The notes below the pieces were generated by a model, which had not been told where the DNA came from, did not search any database, and saw only the letters and a list, made by a program, of their open reading frames with translations. Below, piece by piece: positions 11,901 to 34,103 of a DNA stretch of 46,895 nucleotides. This DNA is from Phoronis australis (taxonomy: Eukaryota > Animalia > Phoronida), in assembly GCA_002633005.1 (NCBI GenBank), contig NMRA01001030.1, forward strand, positions 20,818-67,712, read 5' to 3'. Each line of letters begins with the position of its first letter. Positions within the stretch are counted from its first letter, which is position 1. The position numbers and the translations under genes are program-made.

Positions 11901-14900
11901 CACAGGGCCGTACACAGGGCCGTACACAGGGCCGTACACAGGGCCGTACACAGGGCTGTACACAGGGCTGTACACAGGGCTGTACACAGGGCTGTACACA
12001 GGGCTGTACACAGGGCTGTACACAGGGCTGTACACAGGGCTGTACACAGGGCTGTACACAGAGCTGTACACAGGGCTGTAGACAGACCACATACATATGT
12101 GGGTTCATAAACATAGATTGGCACGTACAACACATGGACTAACCAGAACCATGAACTACACTTGAGGCTAGTGATATGTGACAGCAAATGGTCTGTCTCT
12201 TGAAATGTAAATGAGATCGCCAGTGAAAGATCAGAAGCAGACAACCCTGCCAATACTGCTGACCTTCGACAATCTTTTGAACTGTATGTAGGTAACAAAA
12301 GATCTTGCCAATACTATTTTGACAACTAACACTCTTCTGAACCATTTCCCTAAATGACCTCACTCTGGAGGTGGAAATCATTTTATGTTACAGTAGTGGT
12401 GTAGAAATGTCTAAGGCACAATTTCACTTAACATGACTAACTGATCGATAGAAAAATACCAATTTATAGGCGACTGGCAGAAAATAACACATTTATGTAG
12501 TGGTGTAGAGCTAACTGAAGTGTCAACTTCATAGGAAACTCTTGAAAATTGCTTTTAGTTCACGGGTTGTTGGGCCACATCCAGTGTTTTGTTTCTGACA
12601 AATTTGACTGTAATAACGAAACATTGCATGTGGCAATGGAATGTTACTGATCTCCGATTTCTGACTCTTGACGTCTGCACTTATGAGGGACCTAACCACT
12701 TCTAGCTTGCCTGGACAAGTCGGTTGAATCAAAAATTTGTAGCCTGAGCTGTAGCAAAATGAGGCGCTAATAGTGTAAAATTTGTCAAACTTGTCACCTT
12801 TAAGATTGCTTCTGCTGCCATCCTGACTACAGGCCAGGCCTGTGGTTGTACTCTGCAGTGTCGCCATGGCAACTATCTTTCTCTTGTGGTTGCACAGATT
12901 TGTCAAGTCCTCGTTACATCTGACCTCGTCCAGTGACCATGACTTTGACTGTACAGATGGGTCAAAGTTGAAGACGCGGTCCACAACGAGTGGACATTCC
13001 AGACCACATTTGCATGTACCTTCTGTCTGTAGGTACTGACGTACCTGGGTACCAGATACAAGCCGTGTCCCACTTGGACTGCAATAGAAACACAGTTACG
13101 TTATCGAACAGTGCATACACAGTTACGTTATCGAACAGTGCATACACACATATCCAGTTGAACACAACCAAAATTTTTCAATTTTGTCTACAACAATTTT
13201 CGGGAGCATGTCATTAACTAGAAGGAGCCAAGAAGTATATAGAGAAATTCAGGTGCTTGCTGTTAGCTGGTTGGATGTATAGAACATGTCTTGTTGCCTT
13301 GAACTATGAAAGTAGGACCTAACCACCCCGACTGCCACAAAACACAAATGTTCCTCTTCTAAAACTACATGTCTGTTGGTCCTTATGTTATCCCCAAAGG
13401 TTTCAGCTTTGCAGTATTTACAATTTTCCACACATTTGTGTAAACTGAAATGTTAAATTTAAGATTGCACAGTATTTGCACCATGTAACACTGTCTACAA
13501 TCATCAGACATTGTAATACATTGTAATACATTGTAATACATTGTAATACATACAAACAATTATTGTGTCCCAACATAACTAGAGCACCTTCAAACAAGTT
13601 CATTTTGCTGTCTACAAAAAATTGTCAAATTTTTTGAAATACCTCGACAATGTACTGGGGCTGTTAAATCCTTAGTGCTTAAACTGTTAACAGAACTTTA
13701 TTGAAAATGTTGATAAAAACAGATGATCATTTAGCAGGAACAAAAATGGATCAAATTGCAATTAAGTATTAATATTTGTTTCTGCAACAAATGTAGAAGG
13801 AATGAATGGGAATGTGGGACACTATACACTGTTGTGAGGATGTGCGACAATATACACTGTTGTGAAAAAATTCAAAACATTATTCAGGTAAAACCCTTCA
13901 TTATTATACCATCAAAGAGGGTTCTGTGCAAACATTGTTTAATTCACTTTATTAGAGTGTTACTGATGCTGGCATAAATAGTTAAGATCTAGTTTTGAAA
14001 GTTATTTTCCCCTATGGACGTTTACTATTAACTGATGAAAATTTGTCTTCAATGGCTTTGCCTTCATAAGCCAAGCAGTAATACATCGCACGTGGACGCT
14101 AAAAGCGTAGATAGGCTGATGACTCAGCTATATGACAACAGGTGGTCTTGTGCTCTTGTGCAAACGAATGATGGATGTAACAATAAGTGACTCATTATTG
14201 TTCAATTTAAAGTTGATACTTGCTTATTTGTGAAAACATGAAATAGAAATGTCATAAAAAGTAGTGCAGCAAAAAATATCCCAAAAATTCCCCTCTAAGT
14301 AAAAAACAACATGAGAATTTCCATTTTAGTTCAAAAATGCAGCAAAAATTCCCGCATTAGAAGGCACAGGCACCTGGAGGGCGCTGGATAAGATTTCCAA
14401 ACATGGTACACCGTCATGCTCAAAGACATGTAAGGAGACCATTGGAGAGACTAGTCTTGCTCCAGAAGGTAAAAGTTATCCCCATTAGACCCACTCAGTT
14501 CCACTGGTTTCTACACTAATCTCTCCGACAGTTGTTCAGGTTTAATCCCCTTCATATGATCATTTCTTCAACTGATAACGGGCAACATTCCCAGGAACCA
14601 CAAATTTGCCAAAACGACGCAATTTGGTAATATGAACGGAGCCTGAAGAACATTGAGAAATCAAGACAAAAAACAGACAATAACATCCCTACTTTGCACC
14701 TGCACTAAATCACGCAATTATTCTCAATAATCCATTACCTGTAATAAATCACAGAATTATCCTCAATAATCCTCTGCCAACCAAAAGGCACCGTGGCAAA
14801 GGGCGGGCTGTTCACCATGGCAACGGGTTGGCTGTTCATGTTCGCCATGGCAACGGGTTGGCTGTTCATGTTCACAGTGCCAAAGGGTAGGCTGTTCATG

Positions 14901-15826
14901 CTAGCAATACGTTCCGCACAGTTTGTAACAAGCGAGTCAGCAGGTATTGGTGCAGAGGTGACTTGCACAGGTTTTGACGACAGCAACGCTGTCAGGTGTG
15001 TTGGATTTGTGGGACCAAACAAGGGCTTCACTTGCATAGGGGGACGGCCGTTACAGCTGCTGGACTCAGTCAACGAGGCGCTTTGTGAATGTCCCACAGT
15101 GGGTGGTAGTGTCAATTGAGATGACGATGACAGAGGTGATGATGGCAGTGATGATGATGATGAGGGTGTAGATACTAAGGCTACGGATGACGACAATGTG
15201 TAGGAAGGCTGCTTGTAATACAAGGATGATTGAGATAGTGCAGGCGGGGTTTCACTGCAATCATGATTTTTAGAGTCAGACATATTATCCCGGTGTGATG
15301 ACTGAACACTGTTGGTGACATTCACACTAAAGTTGTTATTAACACTGTACACTTCCACAGTCTCACTCGATGTTAATGTCCCACAACTATCCTTCATTTT
15401 CCGACTGCAGCGTGGTGAAAGCGTGCCAGCTGCAGACTTGCTGTGGTTAACACAGACAGACTTTGACATGCACAAGTCTGAATCACTACGCGAACGGCCA
15501 CGACTAGCACCTAACTGAGATTCAACATTCGCTACTCCTCCTAACTGATAACTTCCGTGTAGTGACACAACTGTCTCTGAACTGAGAGAATGGCGAACTT
15601 TGACCTTTGAACTAGTGTCACTGCACCCACAACCAACTATAGGTCCATTGCTGATCCATTCCGTACAGTGGGAAGGTGACTGATGACAATCATGCATTGT
15701 TGACTGATGAAGCTCGCCATTAACAAGGAGAGATGTTCTATGTGCTGTCGACTTGCACATATCAACTGATTCCAATTTGTCACGTGATCCATCACTCATT
15801 GACAGATCGTCGAGATGTTCATCCAT
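5854..15826 (-). CDS. MBD5: MBD5/6-like methyl-CpG-binding-domain + PWWP protein, spliced gene (coding exons 15826-14739, 13078-12798, 11664-7921 then gap, 7387-7251, 6945-6833, 5962-5854)
   Basis: Split [20 protein letters not shown]|[41 protein letters not shown], plus [32 protein letters not shown] and C-terminal [15 protein letters not shown] match the MBD5 family as I recall it. GT-AG junction phases are consistent, except across the N at 7920. Confidence 0.9.
6022..6247. repeat. ~18-bp degenerate minisatellite (tactttagtaaaatggac)
   Basis: About 12 copies with a higher-order repeat of about 91 bp. Confidence 0.85.
6833..6945 (-). CDS. MBD5: MBD5-like PWWP exon 2
   Basis: ctctttcag acceptor; [37 protein letters not shown]; AA|GTAAG donor. 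Confidence 0.85.
7251..7387 (-). CDS. MBD5: MBD5-like PWWP exon 1
   Basis: tatttttgcag acceptor; [45 protein letters not shown]; AAG|GTACT donor. Confidence 0.85.
7710..7919. repeat. 24-bp minisatellite (tgaagtcactattgtactgtataa) abutting N join
   Basis: About 9 near-perfect copies. Confidence 0.95.
7921..11664 (-). CDS. MBD5: MBD5-like giant low-complexity exon (Q/P/S/M-rich, basic NLS-like [12 protein letters not shown]); 3' end lost in N join; contains 713-bp artefactual duplication
   Basis: Acceptor ttgtcgttgtag in phase with the previous exon ([13 protein letters not shown]...ELLAQRD); 1227-aa ORF stays open to the N at 7920. Confidence 0.8.
11875..12080. repeat. 12-bp minisatellite (tacacagggctg)
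   Basis: About 17 copies. Confidence 0.95.
12798..13078 (-). CDS. MBD5: MBD5-like exon: remainder of MBD and conserved LCNHKRK segment
   Basis: Acceptor tttctattgcag; reads (S)[42 protein letters not shown]...SNLK; donor G|GTGAC. Confidence 0.9.
14739..15826 (-). CDS. MBD5: MBD5-like first coding exon: long Ser-rich N-terminus and start of MBD
   Basis: 363-aa ORF ending [17 protein letters not shown]; donor AG|GTAAT at 14739/14738; acceptor tttcttttcag upstream (exon starts 15856, ATG 15826). Confidence 0.85.
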
Positions 15827-16738
15827 AGTGAAACAGACGTGGCTGATGTGGGAAGACTGAAAAGAAATATGAAATGAATTAGAGGCTCAAACAATAAAGT
15901 GTGCAAAACACAGAATAAAATTTCCTCAAAAAACACTTAGTTTGCACATGTACAAAATCTCTAATTTGAAACATGTACAATAGTAAAATGTACAATGTGT
16001 CATAATGGCCAAATCACAATAAAAAATGAAGGTTGTCCTATAACTTTGAAAGTTATGTCATTTTAAAGTGTACTAGTATTCTAGGTTTGTATTCTAAAAT
16101 ATTTTTGCACAAGAACCACTGAAAAAAAATTATGGCCTGATGCACCACATATATACACTACAGCTTGTGGTCGCAACCCACTTTTATCTTCCAAAAAATT
16201 AATGTAGCATTTATTAAATCATAAATTACCTAATTAACGTGAAGAAGCATGTCATGGTAACGCAAAATACTATTATCGTGCTGATCAAGCTGTACGATGA
16301 TGCAACGCATAAATTAACATAAATTAACACAGTATAATGATTACTTTTTTCTCTTGTAATATGATTCTCAATAAAATGAAACAACAGGCAAGTGCTTGTT
16401 CAAAAACTTTATTGTTACTTTTCATCTAGTTGTTAAAAGAATCACAAGTTGATTTAAACAGTTTAAGCTATGTTAGGTCCAGTCATAACCTTGTTATCAA
16501 TAAGAAAATCCCGTGTGGTACCGGGGGGACTACGTACTTAGTACATGCTTCATCTTCCAACTTAAAGGTTACTTACACTCTGGTGATATTTTCAATGTTA
16601 TTATTTGGTCTTTTAAAGTTTTGAACATTCTCTGGACAGTGATTTTATGTACACTAGACATATCGAAGCCATTACAAAGAAGTCCTTGGGTAAATGTTCA
16701 ATTACCTTTAGTGTACTACAATAGTTTACCTTAAGAAT

Positions 16739-18287: not shown

Positions 18288-18326
18288 ATGGCGCTAGCAT
18301 GTCAAAAGAATTCCTATCTGAAAGAG
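18288..18326 (+). CDS. AARSD1: AARSD1 exon 1 (MALACQKNSYLKE)
   Basis: ATG in gacATGG context; GAG|GTATGA donor; resembles the AARSD1 N-terminus. Confidence 0.85.
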
Positions 18327-21300
18327 GTATGATTAGCGGTGTATATGGTTTTCTAGTGGAATGTTGTAGTTGCACACAAAGTCATGCATATTTAACGAAT
18401 AGTTAACAATACCGAGAAGCGTTTTCCTTTTGTTAGACGCGAGTGACTTATTAACGGTGTTGGAAAAATTGGCATTGTGCTTTGAGTGTGATCTTTTGCG
18501 TCGGCTTTCGCGCGTCACCTATTGGCCAGTTTCTTTTCCCACGATTACATCAACTGTTCTTCTCTTCCACGAGGTTGCGTACATGTCACAACATATTATC
18601 GGAACTGGTTTCATTTTTTTAAAGTTTTTATTATTTTAATACCAGCAAACCGAATTTCAGAACAAATTTTGCTGCTGCCTTAGCCTTACTTAGTTGTCAT
18701 CGCAGCGCTGGAGTTGCAGGTTGCTTTGCGACCTCAGGTTGTGTTTGGCGACCTGGGAAAAATCCAAATCGCCACGAGGCCGCCACTGCAAGTATCAAAG
18801 TCAGACAATATTTCTCTCTAAATTCGTTTCAAAGTTTGTGTTCACTTCCAAATTTTACTAATATTGTTCCTAGATTTATTTACCTTTGATTCACTTAATT
18901 GTTCCATTTATTTTGTGAATGGAATGCATTTGACACCATGTTGAAATCACAGGCGTCCTCACCTTGTGATCGTCCCCACTCTACATAATACTACAAGGTA
19001 TGACACTTAGGACTATAGAAATTCTATGGATGCTTCACAATTCAGATGTCCATAGCAATTAACCAAACAGAGGTTCACCAAACCATGAGGAATTTTTCTT
19101 TCTCCCAATGCCATTTACGGTGTCCTGCTCCACCGAGTTCACAAGAAATTTGCGGTCAAAGCACAAAAATCTTAATTCCTAAAAAGGTCGTCTGGAGCAA
19201 CTCCTTGGTCTCAGGCGCAGGGTACGGAATTATCCGATGAGTTACGGATGTTGACTGACTCGTAAACAAAAGCAAACGACAACCAAACTTATCACAACCG
19301 ATGACTGACTCGACAGCTCTCATAGTCAGACTATATGAAAAGAAATTGGCGCGAAATTCTTGCCTCCCGAAACGTCACTTCCGGAGTAGAGAATGAATAA
19401 TTAATTAAATTAAGAAAAGCTGTAATTAAGTTAATATGTCTGGGATAACCAACGAACCTTATTTTTGCTAAAAATGACATGAAAAAAGGTTGCCTTCACC
19501 TTTAAGGGTCATTATGAAAACTGGCATGTGTTCCTACCATGTCTCCTTAACCCATTGCAAGAGCTTTTTGAAATTTGACAAGTGTTTTCAATTGGATCAG
19601 ACCATTGCTGTACTTCGTAGCGACAATTTTAGTAGTTTACCTCTGTATCCAGTATTCTTTGACATATTTTCAGGAAAATTTACATGATTGGTTTCTATTC
19701 AGATGGATTCATCATATTCTGCACCACCTAGTGGCCATTTTCATAACTCTTTCCTAGACAATTTTAAAGGCCACTTCACCTGGACTCAACCTCAGCAAAA
19801 TTTCTCATATGATTTTCCTGTCGAGGACTGACCGTCAAAATAAAAAAGGCAACTTTCAATTTTATTGTTTACAGTTCAGGTCAAAGGTCGTCTCCTGTGA
19901 ACCAGCATCCATTAAACAAGTTTCCAATGGTAAGAAGGCCACACTGAATGGGTTTAATGTCATCTTGGAAGATACCATTCTATTCCCGGAGGGGGGTGGG
20001 CAACCTGACGACAGGGGAAAGGTAATTGTGTGTTTGAATTTACAATTTCACTCTTGTGACTTGATGAAATAAAATTTCTTGAAGTATGTTGCATTGTCAT
20101 AAAATTTGTTCGATTTGTTTTGTTTTTGTTTGTTTTTTGTTCTAGTGCTACAGATCGCAATTCTTATCATATCAATGCGAAGTTTACTCTCAACATGTCT
20201 TTCGTGAATGGCTCGAAGCCTATTTTTTGTATGAAATTCTTATAAAAGATGGCNCCACCGAGTTCGCAAGAAATTTGCGGTCAAAGTACAAAAATCTGCC
20301 CAAAAAGGTCGTCTGGAGCAACTCCTTGGTCTCAGGCGCAGGGTACGGAATTATCCGATGACTGACTCGTAAACAAAAGCAAACGACAACCAAACTTATC
20401 ACAACCGAGGTATATCAATGACCGACTCGACAGCTCTCATAGTCAGACTATATGAAAAGAAATTGGCACAAAATTCTTACCTTTCGAAACGTCACTTCCG
20501 GAGTAGAGAACAAATAATTAATTAAATGAAGAAAAGCTGTAATTAAGTTAATATGTCTGGGATAACCAACGAACCTTATTTTTGCTAAAAATGACATGAA
20601 AAAGGTTGCCTTCACCTTTAAGGGTCATTATGAAAACTGGCATGTTCCTACCATGTCTCCTTAACTCATTGCAAGAGCTTTTTGAAATTTGACAAGTGTT
20701 TTCAATTGGATCAGACCACTGCTGTACTTGGTAACGACAATTTTAGTAGTTTACCTCTGTATCCAGTGTTCTTTGACAGATTTTCAGGAAAATTTGCATG
20801 ATTGGTTTCTATTCAGATGGATTCGTCATATTCTGCACCACCTAGTGGCCGTTTTCATAACTCTTTCCTAGACAATTTTAAAGGCCACTTCACCTGGACT
20901 CAACCTCAACAAAATTTCTTATATGATTTTCCTGTCGAGGACTGACTGTCAAAATAAAAAAGGCAACATTCAATTTTATTGTTTACAGTTCAGGTCAAAG
21001 GTCGTCTCCTGTGAACCAGCATCCATTAAACAAGTTTCCAATGGTAAGAAGGCCACACTGAATGGGTTTAATGTCATCTTGGAAGATACCATTCTATTCC
21101 CGGAGGGGGGTGGGCAACCTGACGACAGGGGAAAGGTAATTGTGTGTTTGAATTTACAATTTCACTCTTGTGACTTGATGAAATAAAATTTCTTGAAGTA
21201 TGTTGCATTGTCATAAAATTTGTTCGATTTGTTTTGTTTTTGTTTGTTTTTTGTTCTAGTGCTACAGATCGCAATTCTTATCATATCAATGCGAAGTTTA

Positions 21301-24300
21301 CTCTCAACATGTCTTTCGTGAATGGCTCGAAGCCTATTTTTTGTATGAAATTCTTATAAAAGATGGCACTGTGACAGCTATTTTCTCCTTTTTTGTTTGC
21401 GAACTCGCAACCATAGCTCAGCTTTTTCTGGTGGGATTTTATTTTTCTGATTTTTCTTTCTGTGGATATATCATTCAAATGTCTCATTTGGTGTTCTGTA
21501 GTTCTTGCCATTCTCGAGTGAATAGAGTTTGTCTGCGAACTGGTCTCCAAATAACTGAGTTTTAGTGCCGTATCTTCGGGGTCCCTTGATGGATATATTT
21601 GAAATTTGGTATGTGGAGAGATCTTTTCAATTACAATCATCATTGTGAAGTCCTGTTTCTTGCTACGACTTACCGTTCTTGCGGTATTGTCACGTTTTTC
21701 CCCGTGTGTGGTTGTGCGCAGGTGTTTACCAACCGGTGCTGATAGCTTTCGGTGTGACGAAAGACTAAAGACTTGTTCTAGTTAATTACTTTATTAACCT
21801 CGATCGAATGTTCACAAGCCTACTCAAACAAAACGTTATTGAATCTTGCTGTAACTGGTGATTTCTCTTAACTACAACTCATCTGTAATTCTCTCAACTG
21901 TTTAACTGTTAACTGCTTTACTGACTAATACAAACCCGTGCTTGTGTATTTATAGATTAATGCAATGTTCTAGAACTTTTCACTAATTAAAGCACTTTCT
22001 AGAACTTTCCGGAATCTACCCAATCATTCTACAAACATGTCCTAGTCTCTAGAATATTCTAGACTGCATTAATCACTGTCATGCTAGAGTCTTCTAGAAA
22101 GTTCCACACTATACAGTATACAAATCACACCATCACTGTTGTGAACTGAGGGGTCATGCCAATCAAACAGTTCAACTAAACAAAACATGATGAGCCTCTG
22201 TTTGTGTGAACAGTTTCAGTGTTCTTGTGTTCCTCAAGTGTTCCTGGCTCTTGGTAGCCCAATACATGCGAGGTAACAACCCTTTCAAGGAAGACTAAGT
22301 AATAGGGATACTACAGTTGACATTTAGAAAGAGCAGATGTGTTGATGGTACAGAATAAGTGTATTAAACACATGGAGGTATTCTTGCACTCAATGACCTT
22401 CAAACCAGCTCTCCACTCACTGTCAAGTTTCATTCAATAATAGACAATGTCTTGATGATGTCGTGTCTGAAGTGAGAAATTGAGTTTTGCAAAAATGTTA
22501 CCCCTGACACCTACTGGGAAATAAAAGTGTGAGCACCATCTATTGGCAAGGCAGTGAGTTATGTTCCAATACCATCATGTCTGTATCTCTTCTTAGTTAA
22601 GATATCCCGTCCATGGCAGTTCAGTATTTTGATTGTCATTTTCTCAATTTTCTATGTTTTGAATATCAGATAAATGGAATAGATGTTCTGAGAGTGGAGA
22701 AGTGTGGTCAAGATGTCCGCCACTTTGTGCCGAGCCCATTAGATGCAGACACTGATGTTGACATCAAGCTGGATTGGTTGAGAAGATTTGATCACATGCA
22801 ACAACACTCAGGTAATGCCATCTGTTCACTGTGCATACAAAGTGCATCTGTTGACATGCATACAAACTACCATCCGTTGACATGCATATAAAGTGCCATC
22901 TGATGGTGTGCATACAACGGTCAGGTAGTGCCATCTGTTGACAGTGCATACAAATTACCATCTGTTGATGTGCATACAACACGCAGGTAATGCCATCTGT
23001 TGACAATGCATATAAAGTGCCATCTGGTGACGTGCATACAATAGTCAGGTAGTGCCATCTGTTGAGAGTACATACAAACTTTTGATTTATGATGTATTTT
23101 GCAACAAGTTTGTATCAGATGTACTTCCAAAAGTTATAATAAGATTTACTGAAAAACATAACCTAAATTATGGTTGATTTCAAGAAGGACTGCAAACCTG
23201 AGAATGAGAAATCTTACTTCTATCCTAAAAGAGTTCTAAGCAGAGATAGATATTGATATTTGAGGATTACTAAAAGTAATATTTTTTTTTTTTNNNNNNN
23301 NNNNNNNNNNNNNNNNNNNNNNNNNNNNNNNNNNNNNNNNNNNNNNNNNNNNNNNNNNNTGGATTACCTGTCTGTCATTACTGATGCAAATTGTTATTTA
23401 GTGGGACTCGGACTGGAAATCTGTAGTTGTCTTGGCCTGATAAGAACTGGAAAGCAAGGAACTCCACTTACTTTCAATTGTCATACATGTCCTGCAGGTT
23501 TGAGGTTGACTTTTTCATTGATTTTATTTTATATAGAAATCAATTGAAAAGGTTTTAAAAATCTTTTGTAAAGTAGGTCAAATTGACAAAAATGGCCTCC
23601 AAAAATGTAACATTTCCCCTTTTATTTAACTTTTTAGAATAAAAACTTGGTACCAAGTACTGATTGTAATGTATGACTATTTTCAGGTCAGCATCTGATC
23701 ACTGCTGTCATCAATGAAAAATATGGATATGATACAACGTCATGGTAGGTGTTTGAACACAAAATTGTTTTAACATTTAGTGATATTTGGTCCACTGAAC
23801 TGGAGGTATGGACCACTGAACTGGAGGTATGGACCACTGAACTGGAGGTATGCACTACTTAATTCGAAACATGCACCACTGAACTGGAGGCATGCACCAC
23901 TGAACTGGAGGCATGCACCACTGAACTGGAAGCATGCACCTCTGAACTGGAGGCATGCACCACTGAACTGGAGGCATGCACTACTGAACTGGAGACATGC
24001 ACCACTGAACTGGAGTTATGGACCACCAAACTGGAGGCATGCACCACTGAACTGGAGGCATGCACCACTGAACTGGAGGCATACACCACTGAACTGGAGG
24101 CATGCACCTATGAACTGGAAGCATGCACCTCTGAACTGGAGGCATGCACCACTGAACTGGAGGCATGCACCACTGAACTGGAGACATGGACCACCGAAAT
24201 GGCAGTTGGGGGTTCCTCTTTGTACTTTTGGCACCAATTCAATACATTCCTTCCAAAACTTACCGTATTCGCCGTAATAACCGCGTAGGGCGCTTAGAAA

Positions 24301-27300
24301 AGTTCGTTTCAGGGGGGCGCTTATTATAACCCAAGGCCGGTCTCCAAAACGGGTGAAATCGGAAGCTAAGATTCATCATATTTAAGCCTTGTGACGTATC
24401 TGTAATCAATGAAAGACTTCTACAAAACCGTGGTGCATTGCTATCAAACTTTGCTGCTAATAGACTACGATCGTTTTACAGAAAATTGTGCTGAAATCCC
24501 AGGGCGAAAACTTGCCAAATGACTGCCTAGCAATCGTCGATATGGCGACTTGAATGCTGGAATAAAATACAGTTTCGACTCTAGCAAATTACCTGAAATC
24601 TTCCTTAAGTTTTCCAAGTAGCGTCCCTAAGATTTTTAAGTTCCCGTGGGGTCGGAATTAATGACAGGTTTAAGTACAAATCGTGCCATCTACCTGTATG
24701 ATCGTCAACATGAGAAAAATGTCTGGACGAACTCACATGTTGTCGTCACGTGACGTTTGTTTTGAAGTTCGTCTGCGTTTGTGAGTAAGCGAGCGCGTGT
24801 GTGTCACCAGATTTCATTTGCCAGAGCAGAGACCGTCTTTTGGCCAGAGCCATGCAATCTAACGAGCTAGCTAGATGTGCATAGTATCTAAAGAAATTTG
24901 CACAAGCTGTAGGCCTAAACCAGAGCGTGTTTCATTCAGCACTTGCCGGTCTCATGTGCTAAAAATGTTCGACATTTGTTTTGGTAAGGCCCATATTAGT
25001 CGCCGTGTGGCTGGATGCGTACGTTACTATCTGACATTTATTTTTCGATGTAAGGGTGTGTAAGCATTCACTGTCAATCGTCATTTTATCGGATATTTGG
25101 CTTAAAAACACCAATTATGGTTAATCAAACAATTCATCTTAAAAGTAACGCAAACATTTTTATGCACCCACATATTTATATGTGGACGCATTATGCCGTC
25201 ATCTCTGTCCGTCCGGGCAGCGTCCGTCTGGCGTCCGGCGTCTGCTGCTCTATCTCCAAAACGATTGACGTATGTTCATGAAATTTTGCACATATGTTCC
25301 TTTCATGGATGGTACGGCATGAGCGAACTTTTGGACGGATCTGACTACCGATGTGCCCCCTAGTGGCAATTTTAGCTTTTTACGTTTACCTCTGTATCTT
25401 CAAAGGTCCTCGACATATTTTCACAAAATTTGGTATATAGGCACATATTAGTGAGACGATGGTATCCTCCCATTTTCGGATGGATTCACCTTGTGGCCAT
25501 TTTTACTTTTTTTGAGTCTGTTTTTTAGCGTTCGCCCCTCTTTCAAGCAAACCGCTGTAAGCATGATTGCGAAAATTGGCATGTATGTTCTTACTATAAA
25601 GAGGACGGTTGATGATGATTTTCTGACGACTTCGACTATTGTGGCGCCTCCTAGTGGCAGTCTTGTTTTTTTTGCGTATTACAACGCTCCGCGTTGCTCT
25701 TGTTTATAGTATTAGAAACTGTCGGAAATTAGTGCCAATATTCATTTCTTGCCGATGCTATGCTACTCATTTCATGAATGGATAGTTCCCGACTAATGTC
25801 TTTGATGACAGGTTCATGTATGTAGAGCGCGCTTCCTGGCCACATGCTTTTAACACTGGCCAAGCTGTTTAGTAGTCTTCGATTCGCGGTTTTCACGTGT
25901 ACAAAGAAATTTGGATTCCTGTTGAAACCGGGAAACATCTACAAAGCAATCCCGTAGACAAGTACACTACGTCTGTTCTGAAAGGCCACTGGCAGACCAT
26001 TGGTCCTCGCAAGATCAGCAAAACTTTTGTTTTCGTTTTGAGGCATGGCGAAAGTTTGAAGTGTATAGTCACGGCTAAATACCGACATAGCGGCGAGGAT
26101 CGTGGTCTACAAATTCTGCGCACAATGATTTTTTTCAGGACTGTTGGATATTATTGATTAATTGATGACGTTATTGTAGAATTTTAGGCATTTTCCCTCA
26201 TACATGTTCATGGACTGGGCACTTATTTTTGCTAAGTCTGAAAACGCGTGGGGGGGGCGCTTATAGGGGCATGGGCGGTTATTACGGCGAATACGGTAAC
26301 ATACAAACTCTTCATAGTTACAAGTTTTCAAATCTAGTATAATGCTGTTGTTGTACTATGATCATGCCCTCATTTGGTGAGCAGTCGTTGTTATTGGTGA
26401 CAATGGTTGAGTCCAGTTTCAGGGGTGTTGTTATGGAAAGGTCTGTCTTACTTGGTATTGTATAGGTGTGTCACTTTTCTTCTCAAGCAGGAAGGTTTCA
26501 ACTCCAGTCCCAAGTTTCTCTGCGTTTGTGAAACCCATACAGTTTGTGTATCTGCTGTATGGTGGTCTTTGAATACAAGTAAGCTTAGAGACCTCAGTGA
26601 CACATTGCGGTATAGCAAACAGCAGCATTGACAGAAACTATCAAATATTATGTTTAGGAATTCTGAATTCCTGTAGGATTTCAATTTTCTTCAGTTCTAG
26701 AGAATACTGGGATTTATGCTATAGAAACAATATGAAATGATACTTCTAGTTTTCCTAGAAAACTTTCAATTGAAGTACTGTTGTACTTTTTGGCAGACAT
26801 AGGTAGGCTCGTCACTACAGTTATTTTCCATTGCAGGTGGCTTGGTGAAAAGACATCATTCATAGAGTTGGATGCCCCCACCCTGACACTGGAGGAGATG
26901 CGGTACATTGAGGACACTACCAATGACAAAATTAGAGCTGGCATCGGGGTCACGGTAAAGCTGTATGATGATAAAAATGACCCCCGCTTGAGTGAGGTAA
27001 ATTAACTCTCCCCCNNNNNNNNNNNNNNNNNNNNNNNNNNNNNNNNNNNNNNNNNNNNNNNNNNNNNNNNNNNNNNNNNNNNNNNNNNNNNNNNNNNNNN
27101 NNNNNNNNNNNNNNNNNNNNNNNNNNNNNNNNNNNNNNNNNNNNNNNNNNNNNNNNNNNNNNNNNNNNNNNNNNNNNNNNNNNNNNNNNNNNNNNNNNNN
27201 NNNNNNNNNNNNNNNNNNNNNNNNNNNNNNNNNNNNNNNNNNNNNNNNNNNNNNNNNNNNNNNNNNNNNNNNNNNNNNNNNNNNNNNNNNNNNNNNNNNN

Positions 27301-28050
27301 NNNNNNNNNNNNNNNNNNNNNNNNNNNNNNNNNNNNNNNNNNNNNNNNNNNNNNNNNNNNNNNNNNNNNNNNNNNNNNNNNNNNNNNNNNNNNNNNNNNN
27401 NNNNNNNNNNNNNNNNNNNNNNNNNNNNNNNNNNNNNNNNNNNNNNNNNNNNNNNNNNNNNNNNNNNNNNNNNNNNNNNNNNNNNNNNNNNNNNNNNNNN
27501 NNNNNNNNNNNNNNNNNNNNNNNNNNNNNNNNNNNNNNNNNNNNNNNNNNNNNNNNNNNNNNNNNNNNNNNNNNNNNNNNNNNNNNNNNNNNNNNNNNNN
27601 NNNNNNNNNNNNNNNNNNNNNNNNNNNNNNNNNNNNNNNNNNNNNNNNNNNNNNNNNNNNNNNNNNNNNNNNNNNNNNNNNNNNNNNNNNNGCCAACCTA
27701 TAGGATTGTCCTAACCTGTGTCTGGGAGTGATGTCGGCAGCTAGTTGCATATTTATTAGTCTAAAGAAGTGTCACACTGTTGCCAGTGAATGAACGGAAT
27801 ACTACTTTAGGTGTTACACTGAACACTTAAAGTACTTTAGGTGTTATACTGAACACTTAAAGTACTTTAGGTGTTATACTGAACACTTAAAGTACTTAAG
27901 GTGTTATACTGAACACTTAAAGTTGGACAAAAATCCGAGAATATTTATGTTTAAAGTTTCACCCTGTTTATGGCTTTTACTCTCACTCATAAAATCAGTC
28001 TCGTAATAGTCCTTACTATGATAGGATTGTCTGTATGTCTGTGTGTGTGT

Positions 28051-28086
<36 letters not shown>

Positions 28087-31000
28087 TATCAACAAGAATG
28101 CTGAAACCACGAGCGTCTCAAGATATTGCTTTAGACTTAACTGGGAATGACCAAACCTAAAATTCCAAAGTCAAAAATGCTGCATGTACTCTTTGCCCAT
28201 GGCTTAAATTGGTAACGGGAGTAGAATCCAATGGTTGTAAGGAATATTATGAAATGATTTGGCACAAAATTCAGCTTAGAGTAATTGACGGTAAAATTTC
28301 ACCAATGTTAGACAAAAAATTAGCAAAATGCCATTTTTTCATATTTCAAAGGTTTGTATGCCCACAGTTTTTTAGCACTTTGTTTGATGATACAAAACAG
28401 GAAAAGGGTTAAATATTTAATTTGATAAATATTTAATTTGATGCTGCTGAAAAATAAAACTTTCACTAGGCAGCCATATTGTGTCTTAAATTGTCAAAAA
28501 GTTTACAGTAGTTATGGCCAGTGTGTTCACAGTAGTTATGGTCAGTTTGTTCATTGTAGTTATGGTCAGTTTGTTCATTGTAGTTATGGTCAGTTTGTTC
28601 ATTGTAGTTATGGTCAGTTTGTTCATAGTAGTGACGGTTAGTGTGTTCACAGTTGTTATGGTCATTGGTCAGTGTTTTTACTTAGCTTCAAAATGTCGTC
28701 TGCTTGCCTCTAGGCAAGGACACGTGGTCTCCCTGATGATCTTGAGGGATCGGTTCGCATTGTGACTATTGATGGTATTGAAGATGACCTCTGCTGTGGA
28801 ACGCATGTATCAAATACAAGTCATCTACAGGTAGAGATGTTGTGAGCAGATAAACCTGTAGGTGGCACTAGTGTTGCAATGGTCCTACAGCAGTGTTCAA
28901 AATAAAGTGGTCGGACAATTTTGAACTTTGTTTTGACAACACTTAGTGTGGCTAAAGGCTACTTTCCGTCAACAAGCGTCCGTTTCAGTTCTGACACAGT
29001 TTTGTCAAAATTTACCTTTCGAACTGAACACTATTAGCTTGGTGCAATTATCACAAATTGATATCCATTTTAAGATCGACAAGAATGTAAGCAGACAGAC
29101 ATTTTGTGTCCTTGCTAAATTCCCGTGGCATAAAATTCCAAAGTCTGACCAGTTCATTTTGAAAACTACAGTAATGTTTTATTAACTGTCAGATTCAATA
29201 TGAAATGCTTGCCTCTAGGCTAGGACACGTGGCCTTCCTGATGATGTAGACGGATCAATACGCATTGTTACTATAGACGGCATGGAGGATAACATGTGTT
29301 GTGGAACACACGTTTCCAGTCTAAGTCATCTACAGGTGAACACAGGTTATACCTTTCTGAAATTCAGTAGCACCAGTGGTAATGATTGTCTCCCCTGTAA
29401 ATACATGCTGTCGGAAAATCATGTGTTACCCTGACTTGGTCAACAGATTTTTGAAATTATTCAGATAGTAAAGGTAGAACCTCTAATACACTAGTGCCAT
29501 CTAGTGGACACGGAGTGTTTCACTACTAGCAACTGACTTTCTGTCTCTGCTCTACAATTTCTTGTGTCAGCACTGCAACACACAACATACGTAGAACTTG
29601 TATTAACGAATGAAAATGTTACAAAATTACACTTTGACCTGGAATACTTGTTAACTAGGCTGTAGGAGTGTCGGACCCATGCAGCAATACTCCCATATTT
29701 GCCTGATTCTAAATGTAAATAGATTTTAAACTGCTGCAGTTTTACAAAAGACAATTGAGGATCCTGTGCAAACATGGCCAACAGTGTTCATATTTCAATG
29801 ATGTGCCTCGTAATATATATATAGCTCTCAAGTGTGATGTTCTTTGTTGTTGTTTCTGACCAATGATCTAGATACAGATCTAGTTCATTGTTCTAACTGT
29901 TTGTGTTCCTCCATTACACTCCAGGCTGTCAAGCTGCTGAGTGTCGAGAAAGGGAAGAAAAACAAATGTAATCTGGTGTTCCTGGTTGGTAACCGTGTCT
30001 TGGACTACCTACAGCAGTGTTGTGACAGGGAGAGGGCGCTCACTGCTCTACTCAAGTATGTTATTACAGTCTGATAGTATTGTGACCAGGAGATTGCACT
30101 CACTGCTTTACTTAAGTGACGTAAACTCGCTGGTTAACCCCTTGGCCCTTAAATTGGGAAACCCTGAGACAGGGGGTGGGCGATTATTCAAGCAGTGGGC
30201 GCTTAAGGTGAACATTTCGCAAAAAGTCTGATGTGGGCAATTACCCAAGTAGTGGCCACTTACGTCCAAGTTTTAGCCGAACTGGGCAAGCTCGCTGGTT
30301 GTTCATTCGAGCATGGAACTTGTAAGTTTGGTCAAACAGCAGGACCAGACAACCACAAAATTTCTCACGGCTCAAACAGAAACAGGATTTTGACTTTGAA
30401 AGGTGATTTTGCAAGAACGTTGTTAAAAAGTCCAATGTTTTCAAATATGTTAGCGTGCTTCTAAATGTCACTCCACGGAGCTTTATGAAACTTAAATGGC
30501 CCTTACCGTATTAGCAAGCACTGTTTCAGATCAGTGAATGGGACTACATATCGTTTCCAGCGCCGTTGTATTGTTAGTGTTGTTTGTATGACTGTTTTTA
30601 TTTGGAACCCTTCCGGTCCCATCTCGTTCTTGTTAATGTCATCTGCGTATTAAACCCGATAAATTTTCGATTCACTATTTCATTTACCTGTCGCTGGTTT
30701 AAAAACACGGACTATTTGTTCCTGACCGACACAAACCGTTTGCAATTACAATGAGAGGGNTTGACCCAGGAAATCACGTGATCTATGCGTTTAATTACAA
30801 CGAGAGGGGGGATAGATTAATTGGTCATTTCAAATATGAGTAAAAATTCTAGCAAAGTCAAGTGCTCCGTCTAAAAATACATGGCGATGCTTCGAAGTTT
30901 TACCTGTTCTCGCCAAACACTCAAAAAATTTGATTTACTGAACTCGAAAAAGCACCAGAAATAATGTCTGATACGAACAAATTTAGACTACTAGGTAATT

Positions 31001-34000
31001 CAAAAACTTGTAACGTAGACAACCTACGCTGTTGACGTCCAGGACGTCGTACTGTACGTGTAATCTCGTAGTAGACTAGCTTCACTTCTATAAAAATCTA
31101 CGGAGTAGCTGACCTAAATTAATTTAACAAAAGATCATTTGATAAGTTTAAAAAAGGTGATTGTGCGCTTGAGTTATTCCATAAACGCCGGCTGAAAAAC
31201 ATACTGTTCGAGACAATCGTATGCAGGTGTAAGCATGCCGTGTTTCGGCAAACATGGAAGTCGAAGCTCGAAGCAAAGCTGTGAACAAAAGCATGAGTTT
31301 AAGCGCAAGTTCTGTAAGCGGTAAGTTGGGGATGGGCGATTAACGGAGAGGTGAACGCTTGCGTGGAAATTAACACAAAGTAGGGGATGGACGATTACCC
31401 ACACAGTGGGCGCTTAAACTGAAAATTGACCAAGTCAGGGAGGGGCGATTACACAGGCATGGGGTTAACCCACAAGTTTACGGTATGTTATCACAGTTTC
31501 ATAGTATTGTGACCAAGAGAGGGTGCTCACTGCTCTACTTAAGTATGTTATTACAGTCTCGTAGTGTTGTGACCAAGAGAGGGCACTCATTGCTCTACTC
31601 AAATATGTTATCACAGTCTCATAGTATTGTGACCAGGAGGGGGCACTCACTGCTCTACTCAAGTATGTTATCACAGTCTCATAGTATTGTGACCAGGAGG
31701 GGGCGCTCACTTTTTTGCTCAAGTATGTTAGCACAGTCTCTTAGTTCTTCTTCTTCAAATAGTGTGTCAAGGGACCGGAACATCTTTATTTAGGAAATGA
31801 GTTGTAACATATTTGCTTTTCATTTTTTTCTGAGTAGTATTATCTGGAAACTTATATGATGCTGAATCACAGTAAAGTGAGGTGAGAAGTTTTTGAAAAT
31901 GTTATAGTGTTGAGTCACATCTCTGTGTAGTCTATTACTGTTGTGAAGAGTCCAATCATATGTAAAGAAGGAATCATACACACATTTAGTTCTGATGTTC
32001 ACTTTGTTTCTTTTAGGCCAGTAAAGCCAACAAGATCTCGTAAAGAAATGCAATATTTACTTGACTAGTGTGCTTATAGAGCTCACCCTTTTTTACCGGC
32101 ATGACTTGTTCACATTTCAGAAATCAGCCTGAAGATCATCCTATGTTGGTGGAGAAAATGCAAAAGTCGTTCCAAGTCAGTCGAAAGGTATGACACTAAA
32201 CGGAACATGCTTAATTATCCCAATATTGATCAAGCTAAGAAGATAGCACTCCCATTTAGGCTTAGACAATATTGCTTAAGCTCAGACAGTATTGTGCAAG
32301 CTTGGACAATATTGCACAAACTCTTGATAATATTGCACAAGCTTGGTCAATATTGATATATCTTGGTCAGTATTGTTCAATATTGTACAAGCTTGGATAA
32401 TATTGCACAAGCCTTTGACAGCACACTCAGTTTGTGTGTTTGATTGACAGAGATATGTATTATGAACTCTAGGCACAGCACACTACGTCTGTGCATTGAT
32501 GGACACAATTACCATATTGCCTTGTCATTAGGCCCGTGGGTGTCTGTGCGAAACTGCGCTAATATGCGAAACATAGGCGTCTGTGCAGAACTGTGAGAAT
32601 TTGCTAACCACTTGGCTAAAAAGGCCTTATTTCGGATACAGGCCCATGGGCCTAAAGGGGCGACAATATCATGGTGTCTATTATGAACTCTGAGCCCACA
32701 CTAAGTTTGCCCATTCTAAAAATTCATTCATATTTGAAATGTATGCACCTTCAGCTGAGAATGTTTTGCCCATAATGCCTTTCAAGGTCTGACACTAAGG
32801 TCACTATGTACTCCTTTCATTTCACTTTCAGGCATGCTCACAACTGCTTCGTGACGTCGCTGTGTTTGAAGCACAAAAGTTTAAGGCTAATGGAGTTAGC
32901 CGCCTGTTATGTCTACACAGAAAGGAGGGAGATAATGAGTTTATGAATATTATTGTTAATGAAGTTAATGACCCTGTAAGTGCACTTAGAGGTTTGAAAC
33001 TGATCAAATTTGTTTTACATTTATTTGAAGATTTTTTTACATTTATTTGAAGATTTTTTAATTATTTTTACTAATAGTTAAAATTTTCAGTTTGGGCAGT
33101 CCCTAAAATTTTGGAGATCAAATTTCAAGCCAAATTGAACTTTTTGGGATCTTAACATTGGGACATTGGTGATTTTGGCTTCAACATATATGTTTTAGCC
33201 CATGTTCATTTAAGTATTTACTGTTCATCTTGAGATAATGTCCTGAGTAGTGAGACAGTCTACTGACTTGCATTTAGTACATTCAACCAATCTGAATTGT
33301 GTGGTATGATAACTCAGGGGTTAGGTGTTGTTCATTTCCAGAATGTGATACTCTTCTTGTCGGTGGGAGAAGAAAATGGTGCAGGGAACTTTATTCTTGC
33401 CTCAAATCAAGAAGTGATCGATAAAGTTGGCAGCAGGTATGGGTTTTGTGTTGTTCTCTGTAAGTCAGACCAGTTGTGGCATAAAAGTACAACTAATGCA
33501 CATTTTAGGTGTCCCTTGTAGGCATGTCGTCTTGGGTAACTCCACCGATATGATGTGGTTGTTAGTTATTAACGTTTATCTGATCATATGACTCTCCTAA
33601 CCAATCCAGAACTTTTATATGCAACTTCGCTAATTATGACTTTGCGGAGGGTGGAATTATTTGTCATGATGGTACTTTAACACCTCTGAAGTAACCTTGG
33701 TGACAAAGCACAGGATCAGCTTGACCTTCGTATCTTAATGGAAGACATTGGTGGAACAGTTGTCATTGATTATGAGGATTTTGCCACATCAACTCATACT
33801 TCCTTTAGGAACTCTGCTACTCAGATAAAAATTAAGTTGAATTTCATAAATAATTAGAAATTGTTTGTTATTAAATTGGCTGAGAAGTACTCTCCTTCAT
33901 GTGTCTTCCGCTAATGATCATAAAATATGAGTAAACGCGAAATGCTGAGGTGTTCTTTTGTTTGATTTTCTTGCAGAGTGGCTGAGCTTCTGGAGGGGAA

Positions 34001-34103
34001 AGGAGCTGGCAAGAAAGGGAAGTATCAGGGAAAGGCTAATAAACTGAGTAACAGGAAGAAGGTGGAACAGTTATTACGAGAGTATCTAGACCAAGAGTCG
34101 TAA
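18288..34103 (+). CDS. AARSD1: Alanyl-tRNA editing protein AARSD1/AlaX, spliced gene; 11 exons, 408 aa using one copy each of exon 2 and exon 6
   Basis: Motifs LEDTILFPEGGGQPDDRG, RRFDHMQQHSGQHL (HxxxH), CCGTHV (CxxxH), LHRKEGDNEFMNII, LEGKGAGKKGKYQGKA. All introns GT-AG with matching phases; exon lengths sum to 1227 nt. Confidence 0.95.
19875..20021 (+). CDS. AARSD1: AARSD1 exon 2, copy A (redundant assembly copy)
   Basis: tttacag acceptor; FRSKVVSCEP...FPEGGGQPDDRGK; AAG|GTAAT donor; identical to copy B. Confidence 0.8.
20989..21135 (+). CDS. AARSD1: AARSD1 exon 2, copy B
   Basis: Same 147-nt exon on the other side of the single N at 20254. Confidence 0.8.
21753..22129 (-). mobile_element. 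Solo-LTR-like element with heat-shock-element cluster
   Basis: TGTGA...TCACA termini; on the minus strand an HSE cluster, then TATAAATA (21954-21947), then AATAAA (21795-21790), in U3-R-U5 order; no TSD, PBS or PPT seen. Confidence 0.6.
22670..22811 (+). CDS. AARSD1: AARSD1 exon 3 (HxxxH zinc motif)
   Basis: INGIDVLRVEK...LDWLRRFDHMQQHS; atcag acceptor; G|GTAAT donor. Confidence 0.92.
22792..23078. repeat. ~31/62-bp degenerate repeat derived from the AARSD1 exon-3 donor region
   Basis: Recurring tgcatacaa...caggta(a/g)tgccatctgtt. Confidence 0.8.
23294..23359. other. Assembly gap (N run)
   Basis: Run of N. Confidence 0.99.
23687..23744 (+). CDS. AARSD1: AARSD1 exon 4
   Basis: ttttcag acceptor; (G)QHLITAVINEKYGYDTTS(W); TG|GTAGG donor. 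Confidence 0.9.
23788..24195. repeat. 21-bp minisatellite (ccactgaactggaggcatgca)
   Basis: About 19 copies. Confidence 0.95.
24263..26296. mobile_element. Non-autonomous Tc1/mariner-pogo-type DNA transposon in AARSD1 intron 4
   Basis: Perfect 22-bp TIR CCGTATTCGCCGTAATAACCGC at both ends, flanked by TA on each side; no transposase ORF. Confidence 0.85.
25157..25788 (+). mobile_element. Nested DINE/Helentron-like non-autonomous element
   Basis: Begins in a T-run, followed by a hairpin (ccacatat-tt-atatgtgg) and a GTCC-type microsatellite, with an internal duplicated core (cctagtggca); right boundary approximate. Confidence 0.5.
26837..26996 (+). CDS. AARSD1: AARSD1 exon 5
   Basis: ttgcag acceptor; WLGEKTSFIELDAP...DPRLSE; GAG|GTAAA donor. 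Confidence 0.9.
27015..27691. other. Assembly gap (N run) in AARSD1 intron 5
   Basis: Run of N. Confidence 0.99.
27802..27922. repeat. 30-bp tandem repeat x4
   Basis: tactttaggtgttatactgaacacttaaag. Confidence 0.9.
28028..28085. repeat. (GT)n/(CTGC)n compound microsatellite, probably inside a DINE-like element
   Basis: Direct inspection; preceded by ataggattgtc, which also occurs near 27700. Confidence 0.8.
28505..28665. repeat. 24-bp minisatellite (gtagttatggtcagtttgttcatt)
   Basis: About 6.5 copies ending about 50 bp before exon 6a. Confidence 0.9.
28714..28830 (+). CDS. AARSD1: AARSD1 exon 6a (CxxxH motif, DLCCGTH variant)
   Basis: tgcttgcctctag acceptor; ARTRGLPDDLEGSVRIVTIDGIEDDLCCGTHVSNTSHLQ; CAG|GTAGA donor; 117 nt, phase 0-0. 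Confidence 0.85.
28891..29168. mobile_element. Small hAT-like MITE between AARSD1 exons 6a and 6b
   Basis: Imperfect ~26-bp TIR cagtgttcaaaataaagtggtcggac vs tagttttcaaaatgaactggtcagac; no clean TSD. Confidence 0.55.
29219..29335 (+). CDS. AARSD1: AARSD1 exon 6b (CxxxH motif, NMCCGTH variant)
   Basis: tgcttgcctctag acceptor; ARTRGLPDDVDGSIRIVTIDGMEDNMCCGTHVSSLSHLQ; CAG|GTGAA donor; 117 nt, phase 0-0. Confidence 0.88.
29925..30055 (+). CDS. AARSD1: AARSD1 exon 7
   Basis: ctccag acceptor; AVKLLSVEKGKKNKCNLVFLVGNRVL...ALTALL(K); AA|GTATGT donor. Confidence 0.92.
30119..31483. mobile_element. Non-autonomous pogo-type DNA transposon inserted in a 60-bp minisatellite (AARSD1 intron 7)
   Basis: Imperfect TIR cgtaaactcgctggttaacccc vs cgtaaacttgtgggttaacccc; inserted at the TA of aagTAtgtta (left TA now TG); shares gggcgctta subterminal motifs with the 24263 element. 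Confidence 0.75.
31484..31740. repeat. 60-bp minisatellite derived from AARSD1 exon-7 end plus donor (continues 30020-30118)
   Basis: tgtgaccaggagggggcactcactgctctactcaa|gtatgttatcacagtctcatagtat units on both sides of the 30119-31483 transposon. Confidence 0.9.
32121..32187 (+). CDS. AARSD1: AARSD1 exon 8
   Basis: atttcag acceptor; NQPEDHPMLVEKMQKSFQVSRK; AAG|GTATG donor; phases fit the neighbours. Confidence 0.85.
32258..32414. repeat. ~20-bp degenerate repeat (caatattgcacaagcttgga)
   Basis: About 7 copies. Confidence 0.75.
32832..32975 (+). CDS. AARSD1: AARSD1 exon 9
   Basis: ctttcag acceptor; ACSQLLRDVAVFEA...LHRKEGDNEFMNIIVNEVNDP; GTAAGT donor. Confidence 0.9.
33342..33436 (+). CDS. 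AARSD1: AARSD1 exon 10
   Basis: tttccag acceptor; NVILFLSVGEENGAGNFILAS...VGS(R); AG|GTATG donor. Confidence 0.9.
33977..34103 (+). CDS. AARSD1: AARSD1 exon 11 (last), poly(A) signal AATAAA at 34128-34133
   Basis: ttcttgcag acceptor; VAELLEGKGAGKKGKYQGKANKLSNRKKVEQLLREYLDQES then TAA. Confidence 0.92.

What the first reader, a model, noticed from the sequence alone, without database searches (positions are those of the whole stretch)
28786..29311. The two exon-6 variants differ at the editing-pocket residue: DLCCGTH vs NMCCGTH
Seen in sequence: two residues before the zinc-ligand Cys, exon 6a has Asp-Leu and exon 6b has Asn-Met; after the His they read VSNT vs VSSL. From memory of the families: vertebrate AARSD1 has NMCCGTH, whereas the cis-editing domains carry an acidic residue here (E. 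coli AlaRS ELCGGTH with Glu664; ThrRS DLCRGPH with Asp180), implicated in editing. Inference: 6b is the ancestral-type exon and 6a has acquired a synthetase-like acidic residue. Splicing could therefore switch substrate range (Ser- vs Gly-tRNAAla, or Ser-tRNAThr), rate or oxidation sensitivity, i.e. regulated translational fidelity.
Basis: partly seen in the sequence, partly recalled or inferred. Interest (0 to 1): 0.8.

Follow-up and report, generated by a model that had tools for sequence, protein, structure and literature searches.

The report
Duplicated exon in tRNA proofreading enzyme
An invertebrate gene for the tRNA-proofreading enzyme AARSD1 carries two intact, transcribed copies of its active-site exon that are likely spliced as alternatives, but the Asp/Asn difference between them likely tunes the enzyme rather than switching what it edits.

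Summary
An AARSD1 (AlaX) gene, probably spiralian, has two 117-nt copies of exon 6 (28714-28830, 29219-29335) reading DLCCGTH and NMCCGTH. The pair is real and alive: dN/dS about 0.10, unalignable introns, full DNA depth, and sense RNA reads on both copies at roughly half the depth of flanking exons in three samples. That fits mutually exclusive splicing; junction reads were not seen. New here: a 16-bp complementary pair of intron elements brackets exon 6b (possible selector/docking stem, but both arms also match a CTCF-like motif). The proposed substrate switch is poorly supported. The residue two before the zinc Cys is not 'acidic in cis-editors': Glu in E. coli AlaRS, Gln in archaeal AlaRS, Asp in ThrRS, Asn in AlaX-S, Ile in AlaX-M. 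Enzymes with Asn or Asp there are both serine editors, and human AlaX already edits Ser-tRNAThr. The published oxidation-switch residue is Val in both copies. Asp is rare in AARSD1 (3 of 209; 3 of 150) but is the only form in pufferfish records. Best reading: two likely serine-specific isoforms that differ modestly or not at all.

The parts
18288..34103 (+). AARSD1 / AlaX gene, 11 coding exons plus the duplicated exon 6; 408-aa model with either copy
   Evidence: tblastn with orthologues, splice sites and open frame, exon 7-8 joint seen in 17, 16 and 25 RNA reads
22670..22811 (+). Exon 3, ends in the first His of the HxxxH zinc motif (residue 104), completed by exon 4 (23687-23744)
26837..26996 (+). 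Exon 5, upstream constitutive exon; followed by a 677-N gap (27015-27691)
28714..28830 (+). Exon 6a, 39 codons, CxGxH zinc motif preceded by Asp-Leu (Asp codon 28786-28788)
   Evidence: sequence; Pfam PF07973 33.5 bits; sense RNA depth 9, 10, 10 at 28716
28855..28874 (+). Element P: 5' arm of a 16-bp stem with D; also a CTCF-like motif on the + strand
29219..29335 (+). Exon 6b, 39 codons, CxGxH zinc motif preceded by Asn-Met (Asn codon 29291-29293)
   Evidence: sequence; Pfam PF07973 24.7 bits; sense RNA depth 13, 7, 5 at 29227
29367..29378 (+). Element P': degenerate look-alike of P at the same offset behind exon 6b; weak predicted pairing with D
   Evidence: similarity alone not significant, 249 of 2000 shuffles
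29488..29507 (+). Element D: 3' arm of the stem with P, which would loop out exon 6b; also a CTCF-like motif on the - strand
29925..30055 (+). Exon 7, downstream constitutive exon

Best explanation
The AARSD1 gene holds an old tandem duplicate of its zinc-site exon, both copies intact and transcribed, which are likely spliced as mutually exclusive alternatives to give two 408-aa isoforms that likely both remove serine from mischarged tRNAs and differ at most in rate, affinity or stability. Shown: the duplication, purifying selection on the pair, transcription of both copies at about half the depth of the neighbours. Inferred: one copy per mRNA, at roughly 50:50. Predicted: pairing of intron elements P and D loops out 6b and favours 6a, with 6b used when that stem does not form. 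Inferred from the family: Asn and Asp are same-sized alternatives beside the serine-binding pocket, so the swap would add a negative charge near the aminoacyl group without changing which amino acid fits.
For: dS 1.17, dN 0.115, Fisher p 1e-6; similarity stops at the exon plus 13 nt of acceptor. DNA depth 42.7 and 40.1 over the two copies, with a half-depth variant inside 6b, so they are not alleles (X1 may be the assembly's source). RNA depth summed over three samples of one study: exon 5 63, 6a 29, 6b 25, exon 7 74, exon 8 70; constant inclusion of both is rejected (p 4e-8), the sum 54 is near the neighbours (p 0.04-0.14). The 4 listed RNA differences in 6a/6b are all synonymous. All zinc ligands and the C-10 Val are the same in both copies. 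Residue at C-2 across solved relatives: N (AlaX-S, 3kew), D (ThrRS), Q (archaeal AlaRS), I (AlaX-M), E (E. coli AlaRS). Asp is the only form in 6 of 6 pufferfish records with the motif and in the sea spider Nymphon record; T, C and S also occur (11 of 150). P:D stem -34 kcal/mol, 0 of 200 shuffles, strongest of 10 exon-flanking comparisons in the gene.
Against: No 5-6a, 5-6b, 6a-7, 6b-7 or 6a-6b joint is visible; the joints table hid 22 rows, and a mix of double inclusion and double skipping (both in frame) gives the same depths. Asn is kept in 91-99% of orthologues, so the site is constrained and Asp could matter more than assumed. Keeping both copies through dS above 1 suggests some benefit from having two. 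No second full copy in 80 metagenome loci, so cross-species conservation is not shown. P and D both fit a CTCF-like motif that is enriched in the window (10 matches, 0.16 expected), so the shuffle test overstates the stem; the second selector P' pairs no better than background. The role of ThrRS D180 in binding serine and the mild effect of E. coli E664A are recalled, not read.
Confidence: 0.6

Rival explanations
1. One reading: exon choice switches substrate range or oxidation response through the Asp/Asn residue, giving regulated translational fidelity.
For: The site is homologous to E664 and D180 and is Asn in 206 of 209 and 136 of 150 orthologues; both copies are conserved and transcribed. 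Precedent: coq-2 mutually exclusive exons switch substrate with two conserved residues (PMC7434440 passages); such exons cluster at functional sites (PMC7954323 abstract).
Against: No acid rule at this site; human AlaX already edits all cytoplasmic Ser-tRNAs tested; the oxidation determinant is unchanged; Asp is the sole form in pufferfish records; unlike coq-2, no second lineage with the pair was found; no sign of sample-specific use among three RNA runs (chi-square p 0.27, low power).
Confidence: 0.13
2. Exon 6a is a weakened or dying copy that makes a low-activity subunit (possibly damping the dimer), and 6b does the work.
For: 6a carries two changes at conserved sites (D25, T35) and scores lower on an orthologue profile (79.5 bits, 19th percentile, against 85.6, 36th); 6 reads in one run continue from 6a into the intron. 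Human AlaX is a dimer (section title).
Against: A long-dead copy would give dN/dS near 0.5 or more, not 0.10; every invariant column is kept; D and T each occur in orthologues (3 and 23 of 150); 6a takes 54% of reads at the exon starts (95% interval 40-67%).
Confidence: 0.12
3. The exons are not strictly exclusive: transcripts with both or neither are common, and the pair is a tolerated duplication with leaky splicing.
For: Both and neither are in frame (447 and 369 aa); the 388-nt intron is long enough to splice and has an ordinary acceptor; the depths cannot separate this from exclusivity.
Against: It would need about half of mRNAs to lack the catalytic Cys and half to double a core strand; purifying selection on both copies is hard to explain that way.
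Confidence: 0.1
4. Assembly artefact: two alleles or paralogue fragments placed in tandem.
For: The window has three near-identical duplications at single N letters, one covering exon 2; no listed contig bridges 29178-29240 (8 of 700 pieces shown).
Against: 78% identity with unalignable introns, no N between the copies, full depth on both, a variant inside 6b, and intron reads between them in RNA.
Confidence: 0.03

Closest known systems
Animal AARSD1 / eukaryotic AlaX (human AlaX, yeast AlaX; PMC11260482)
   Same: Full domain order, HxxxH and CxxxH motifs, Cys at 209 as in human C209, Gly-rich C-terminal motif, 60% identity to Lingula and Owenia proteins, same 117-nt exon in 43 of 80 related loci
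   Different: Two copies of the CxxxH exon; one has Asp at C-2. No full second copy in 80 loci; no paper with 'AARSD1' and 'mutually exclusive exon'. No p23/PTGES3L gene found in the window.
Tandem-duplicated mutually exclusive exons in enzymes: coq-2 exons 6a/6e (PMC7434440), ATE1 exons 7a/7b (PMC7797038)
   Same: Homologous internal exons covering active-site residues; in ATE1, an intron element between the exons pairs with a downstream element
   Different: coq-2's switch residues are shared across helminths, annelids and molluscs and were shown to change product; here the pair is seen in one species, exclusivity is inferred from depth, and no functional difference is shown
Selector/docking RNA pairing born by duplicating one arm of a hairpin (PMC6071210)
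   Same: Order 6a-P-6b-P'-D is what that model predicts
   Different: P' pairs weakly, no covariation data, and both strong arms also fit a CTCF-like DNA motif
AlaRS and ThrRS cis-editing domains (E. coli E664/C666, D180/C182; PMC12003907)
   Same: Same fold family and CxGxH motif; 6a matches ThrRS in having Asp at C-2
   Different: Archaeal AlaRS have Gln there; the ThrRS-type oxidation determinant Tyr173 is absent, both copies having the AlaRS-type Val

Membership tests
AARSD1 / eukaryotic AlaX | HxxxH and CxxxH zinc motifs | tested here: met
   H104 and C209 in both models; PF07973 above cutoff for both exons
AARSD1 / eukaryotic AlaX | Free-standing editing domain with N-terminal barrel, helices and C-Ala part with Gly-rich motif | tested here: met
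   exons match orthologues end to end; about 60% identity to Lingula and Owenia AARSD1
AARSD1 / eukaryotic AlaX | Serine-specific deacylation of charged tRNA | not testable with these tools
   shown for human and yeast enzymes; not assayed here
Tandem-duplicated mutually exclusive exons | Adjacent homologous exons of equal length and phase with intact splice sites | tested here: met
   117 nt each, AG..GT, 78% identical
Tandem-duplicated mutually exclusive exons | Both copies constrained and transcribed | tested here: met
   dN/dS 0.10; sense reads on both in 3 of 3 RNA runs
Tandem-duplicated mutually exclusive exons | Exactly one copy per mRNA | tested here: inconclusive
   depths fit but the joints around exon 6 were not among the rows shown
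Tandem-duplicated mutually exclusive exons | Pair conserved in other species | tested here: inconclusive
   0 of 80 loci with a second full copy; only 23 had the same exon with 600 nt on both sides, none is a close relative (best 72% nt)
Selector/docking RNA pairing | A strong intronic stem flanking one of the exons | tested here: met
   16 bp, 0 of 200 shuffles, formed in the MFE and centroid folds; CTCF-like motif confounds
Selector/docking RNA pairing | A second selector competing for the same site, with covariation | tested here: inconclusive
   P' pairs at -11 to -16 kcal/mol, like background; no orthologous introns for covariation
   Gln in A. fulgidus and P. horikoshii AlaRS, Ile in AlaX-M, Asp in pufferfish AARSD1
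ThrRS-type oxidation-sensitive editing site | Tyr at the shell position (ThrRS Y173, AlaRS L656, AlaX-M T172) | tested here: not met
   Val at C-10 in both copies

The most novel reading that the evidence does not exclude
This animal sets its proofreading by splicing: an RNA stem chooses between an Asn and an Asp version of the AlaX active site, and the two differ enough in speed or tRNA preference to trade removal of Ser-tRNAAla/Thr errors against wasteful loss of correct Ser-tRNASer and Ser-tRNASec, by tissue or stress. It would be a first case of a splice-switched tRNA editing pocket.
Probability: 0.15. Interest if true: 0.72.

Novelty: new variant of a known kind. Interest (0 to 1): 0.4.

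Why it matters
Alternative exons over the catalytic loop of a tRNA proofreader were not found in print by my search. The pair is a natural side-by-side test of what the residue two before the zinc Cys does, a position that varies (N, D, E, Q, I) across AlaX, AlaRS and ThrRS without a settled role. If the isoforms differ and the ratio is regulated, translational fidelity is tunable by splicing. If they do not, it is an ordinary lineage-specific duplicated exon and a clean example of how such exons may gain exclusivity from a flanking hairpin.

Tried and rejected
No genome is held for the window, so paralogues elsewhere were not checked. The sequencing-run index gave 'no RNA holder listed'; RNA runs came by species label only. 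Joints around exon 6 were crowded out of the table by DNA-contig rows. Search for a second species with the pair: none in 80 metagenome loci (3 had short partial repeats only; one of the two search patterns required Met and so disfavoured 6a-like exons); no protein with two motifs among 211; isoform records of 10 clusters showed no flagged alternative exon by name. Steric exclusion by a short intron or distant branch point: rejected, intron 388 nt with upstream AGs at -28 and -30. Frame-enforced exclusion: rejected, both and neither are in frame. An upstream partner for P that would loop out 6a: nothing near the strength of D (best upstream -18.8 against a simple repeat), though 677 nt of that intron are N. 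A hairpin inside the 6a-6b intron (28886-28916 with 29143-29173) did not form in the fold. Primary papers on E664 and D180 (Pasman 2011, Sokabe 2005, Novoa 2015) are not held; four text searches and passages of PMC4041444 and PMC3592468 gave nothing on these residues. No structure was predicted because the tool returns no contacts. Earlier scan findings: none.

Full report
What is there. The window holds a + strand AARSD1 (AlaX) gene from 18288 to 34103. The finding's two motifs lie in two 117-nt exons, 6a (28714-28830) and 6b (29219-29335), each with AG and GT ends, in phase 0, 388 nt apart. Joined by coordinates, either copy gives an open 408-aa protein with HxxxH at 104 and CCGTH at 209; both copies give 447 aa and neither 369 aa, all in frame. 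The protein is closest to Lingula and Owenia AARSD1 (60%) and falls with spiralians in a 28-row tree, at modest support (84/94).

Is the pair real? The assembly has artefact-like duplications: three stretches 95-99% identical, introns included, at single N letters, one covering exon 2. Exon 6 is different. The copies are 78% identical, the likeness ends 13 nt before the exon and at the donor, and there is no N between them. DNA contigs cover both at depth 40-43 with no differences, while variant sites show about half that, one of them inside 6b, so 6a and 6b are not alleles; that run may be the assembly's own source and no shown piece bridges 29178-29240.

Are both alive? Of 22 differing codons 14 are synonymous; dS 1.17, dN 0.115, ratio 0.10, Fisher p 1e-6. 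A copy dead since the duplication would push the ratio to about 0.5 (inference). Three RNA runs (three samples, one study, same species label, 18-19% of each read) put sense reads on both copies. Summed depth: exon 5 end 63, 6a start 29, 6b start 25, exon 7 74, the 67-nt exon 8 70. Constant inclusion of both is rejected (p 4e-8); the sum of the two, 54, is close to the neighbours (p 0.04-0.14); 6a's share is 54% (40-67%) with no clear difference between runs (p 0.27) (mates are not independent, so p values are rough). This is what mutually exclusive use predicts, but the joints around exon 6 were not among the rows shown (22 hidden), so exclusivity is inferred. The RNA animals differ from the window at fixed sites; the 4 listed in 6a and 6b are all synonymous, and none is listed at the Asp or Asn codon, though 105 rows were hidden.

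How could exclusivity work? Not by frame or by a short intron. An inverted-repeat scan found element P (28859-28874), 28 nt behind 6a, complementary over 16 nt to element D (29488-29503) behind 6b. The duplex is -34 kcal/mol against -24 +/- 2 for shuffles (0 of 200), forms in both the minimum-energy and centroid folds, and is the strongest of 10 exon-flanking comparisons in this gene. It would loop out 6b. A decayed look-alike P' sits at the same offset behind 6b, as the arm-duplication model predicts (PMC6071210, abstract), but its similarity is not significant alone (249 of 2000) and it pairs with D no better than background. A caution: P and D both fit a CTCF-like consensus (recalled, loosened at one place to fit them) in facing orientation, and the window has 10 such matches against 0.16 expected. 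The stem may thus be partly a by-product of two DNA sites, although no other site in the window comes within 3 mismatches of the shared 16-mer.

Does Asp versus Asn switch the enzyme? The site is two before the zinc Cys, as are E. coli AlaRS E664 and ThrRS D180. Asn is the AARSD1 norm: 206 of 209 proteins at 90% clustering (fish-heavy, and partly found with an Asp-type query) and 136 of the best 150 of 217 representatives at 50%, the rest being T 5, D 3, C 3, S 3. So Asp in 6a is derived and rare. But it is tolerated elsewhere: all 6 records with the motif in an 8-member pufferfish cluster (Tetraodon, two Takifugu species) have Asp, as does Nymphon; I did not check those genomes for a second exon. 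The 'acid in cis-editors' rule fails: A. fulgidus and P. horikoshii AlaRS have Gln, AlaX-M has Ile, AlaX-S and 3kew have Asn. Matching these to reported activities (PMC11260482, passages and section 30; PMC12003907, sections 10-12): AlaX-S (Asn) and human AlaX (Asn, recalled) clear Ser but not Gly, including Ser-tRNAThr; ThrRS (Asp) clears Ser-tRNAThr; Gly editing is reported for E. coli AlaRS (Glu) and AlaX-M (Ile). Asn to Asp therefore stays among serine editors (inference from few enzymes). The published oxidation switch is the shell residue ThrRS Y173 / AlaRS L656 / AlaX-M T172, which aligns ten before the Cys and is Val in both copies. From memory, unverified here: D180 contacts the seryl group in ThrRS, and E. 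coli E664A lowers editing only slightly. Neither copy is simply ancestral: 6a has rare D25 and T35, 6b has rare M22, D11 and S34, and both score inside the orthologue range (19th and 36th percentile of 253).

Distribution. The same 117-nt exon occurs in 43 of 80 metagenome loci (33 distinct sequences), none with a second full copy; 23 of these had 600 nt on both sides. The two copies are closer to each other (78%) than to any of those (72% at best), consistent with a duplication within this lineage. No close relative was sampled.

Comparison and verdict. It works like a tandem-duplicated mutually exclusive exon pair in an enzyme; coq-2 (PMC7434440, passages) is the precedent for a true substrate switch and ATE1 (PMC7797038, abstract) for RNA-pairing control. 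One search found no paper joining AARSD1 with mutually exclusive exons; subscription papers and supplements (for example the AlaX alignment in Supplementary Figure S10 of PMC11260482) were not seen.

Noticed in passing
window 19127-21367, 9294-10729, 7711-7920: Near-identical tandem duplications (95-99%) each ending at a single N; the first duplicates exon 2 of AARSD1 letter for letter. Likely assembly artefacts.
   Followed up: partly
window 28855-28869 (+), 29493-29507 (-) and 8 more sites: CTCF-like motifs are strongly enriched in the window (10 against 0.16 expected), 8 of them inside AARSD1 introns; two face each other across exon 6b.
   Followed up: partly
window 22797-23078, 30076-30117, 31483-31745: Short tandem repeats built from exon ends and donor sites (end of exon 3, end of exon 7) lie in the following introns; similar partial repeats of exon 6 occur in loci L004, L016 and L063. 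Local tandem duplication seems frequent here.
   Followed up: no
P0135, P0360-P0363, P0365, P0116: Pufferfish AARSD1 records carry Asp at C-2 together with Phe in place of the usual His of LPDDH; a natural single-form Asp enzyme.
   Followed up: partly
P0226, P0237, P0257, P0258 and others: Unnamed AARSD1-like proteins with Thr, Cys or Ser at C-2 (11 of 150).
   Followed up: no
window 28835: Six reads of run X5 continue from exon 6a into the intron and carry a different letter at donor position +5.
   Followed up: no
window 7922-15886 (-) and 46018-46893 (-): Neighbouring genes: a large upstream gene with a weak MBD match (below cutoff), head to head with AARSD1, and a fatty acid desaturase. 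No p23/PTGES3L match in the window.
   Followed up: no
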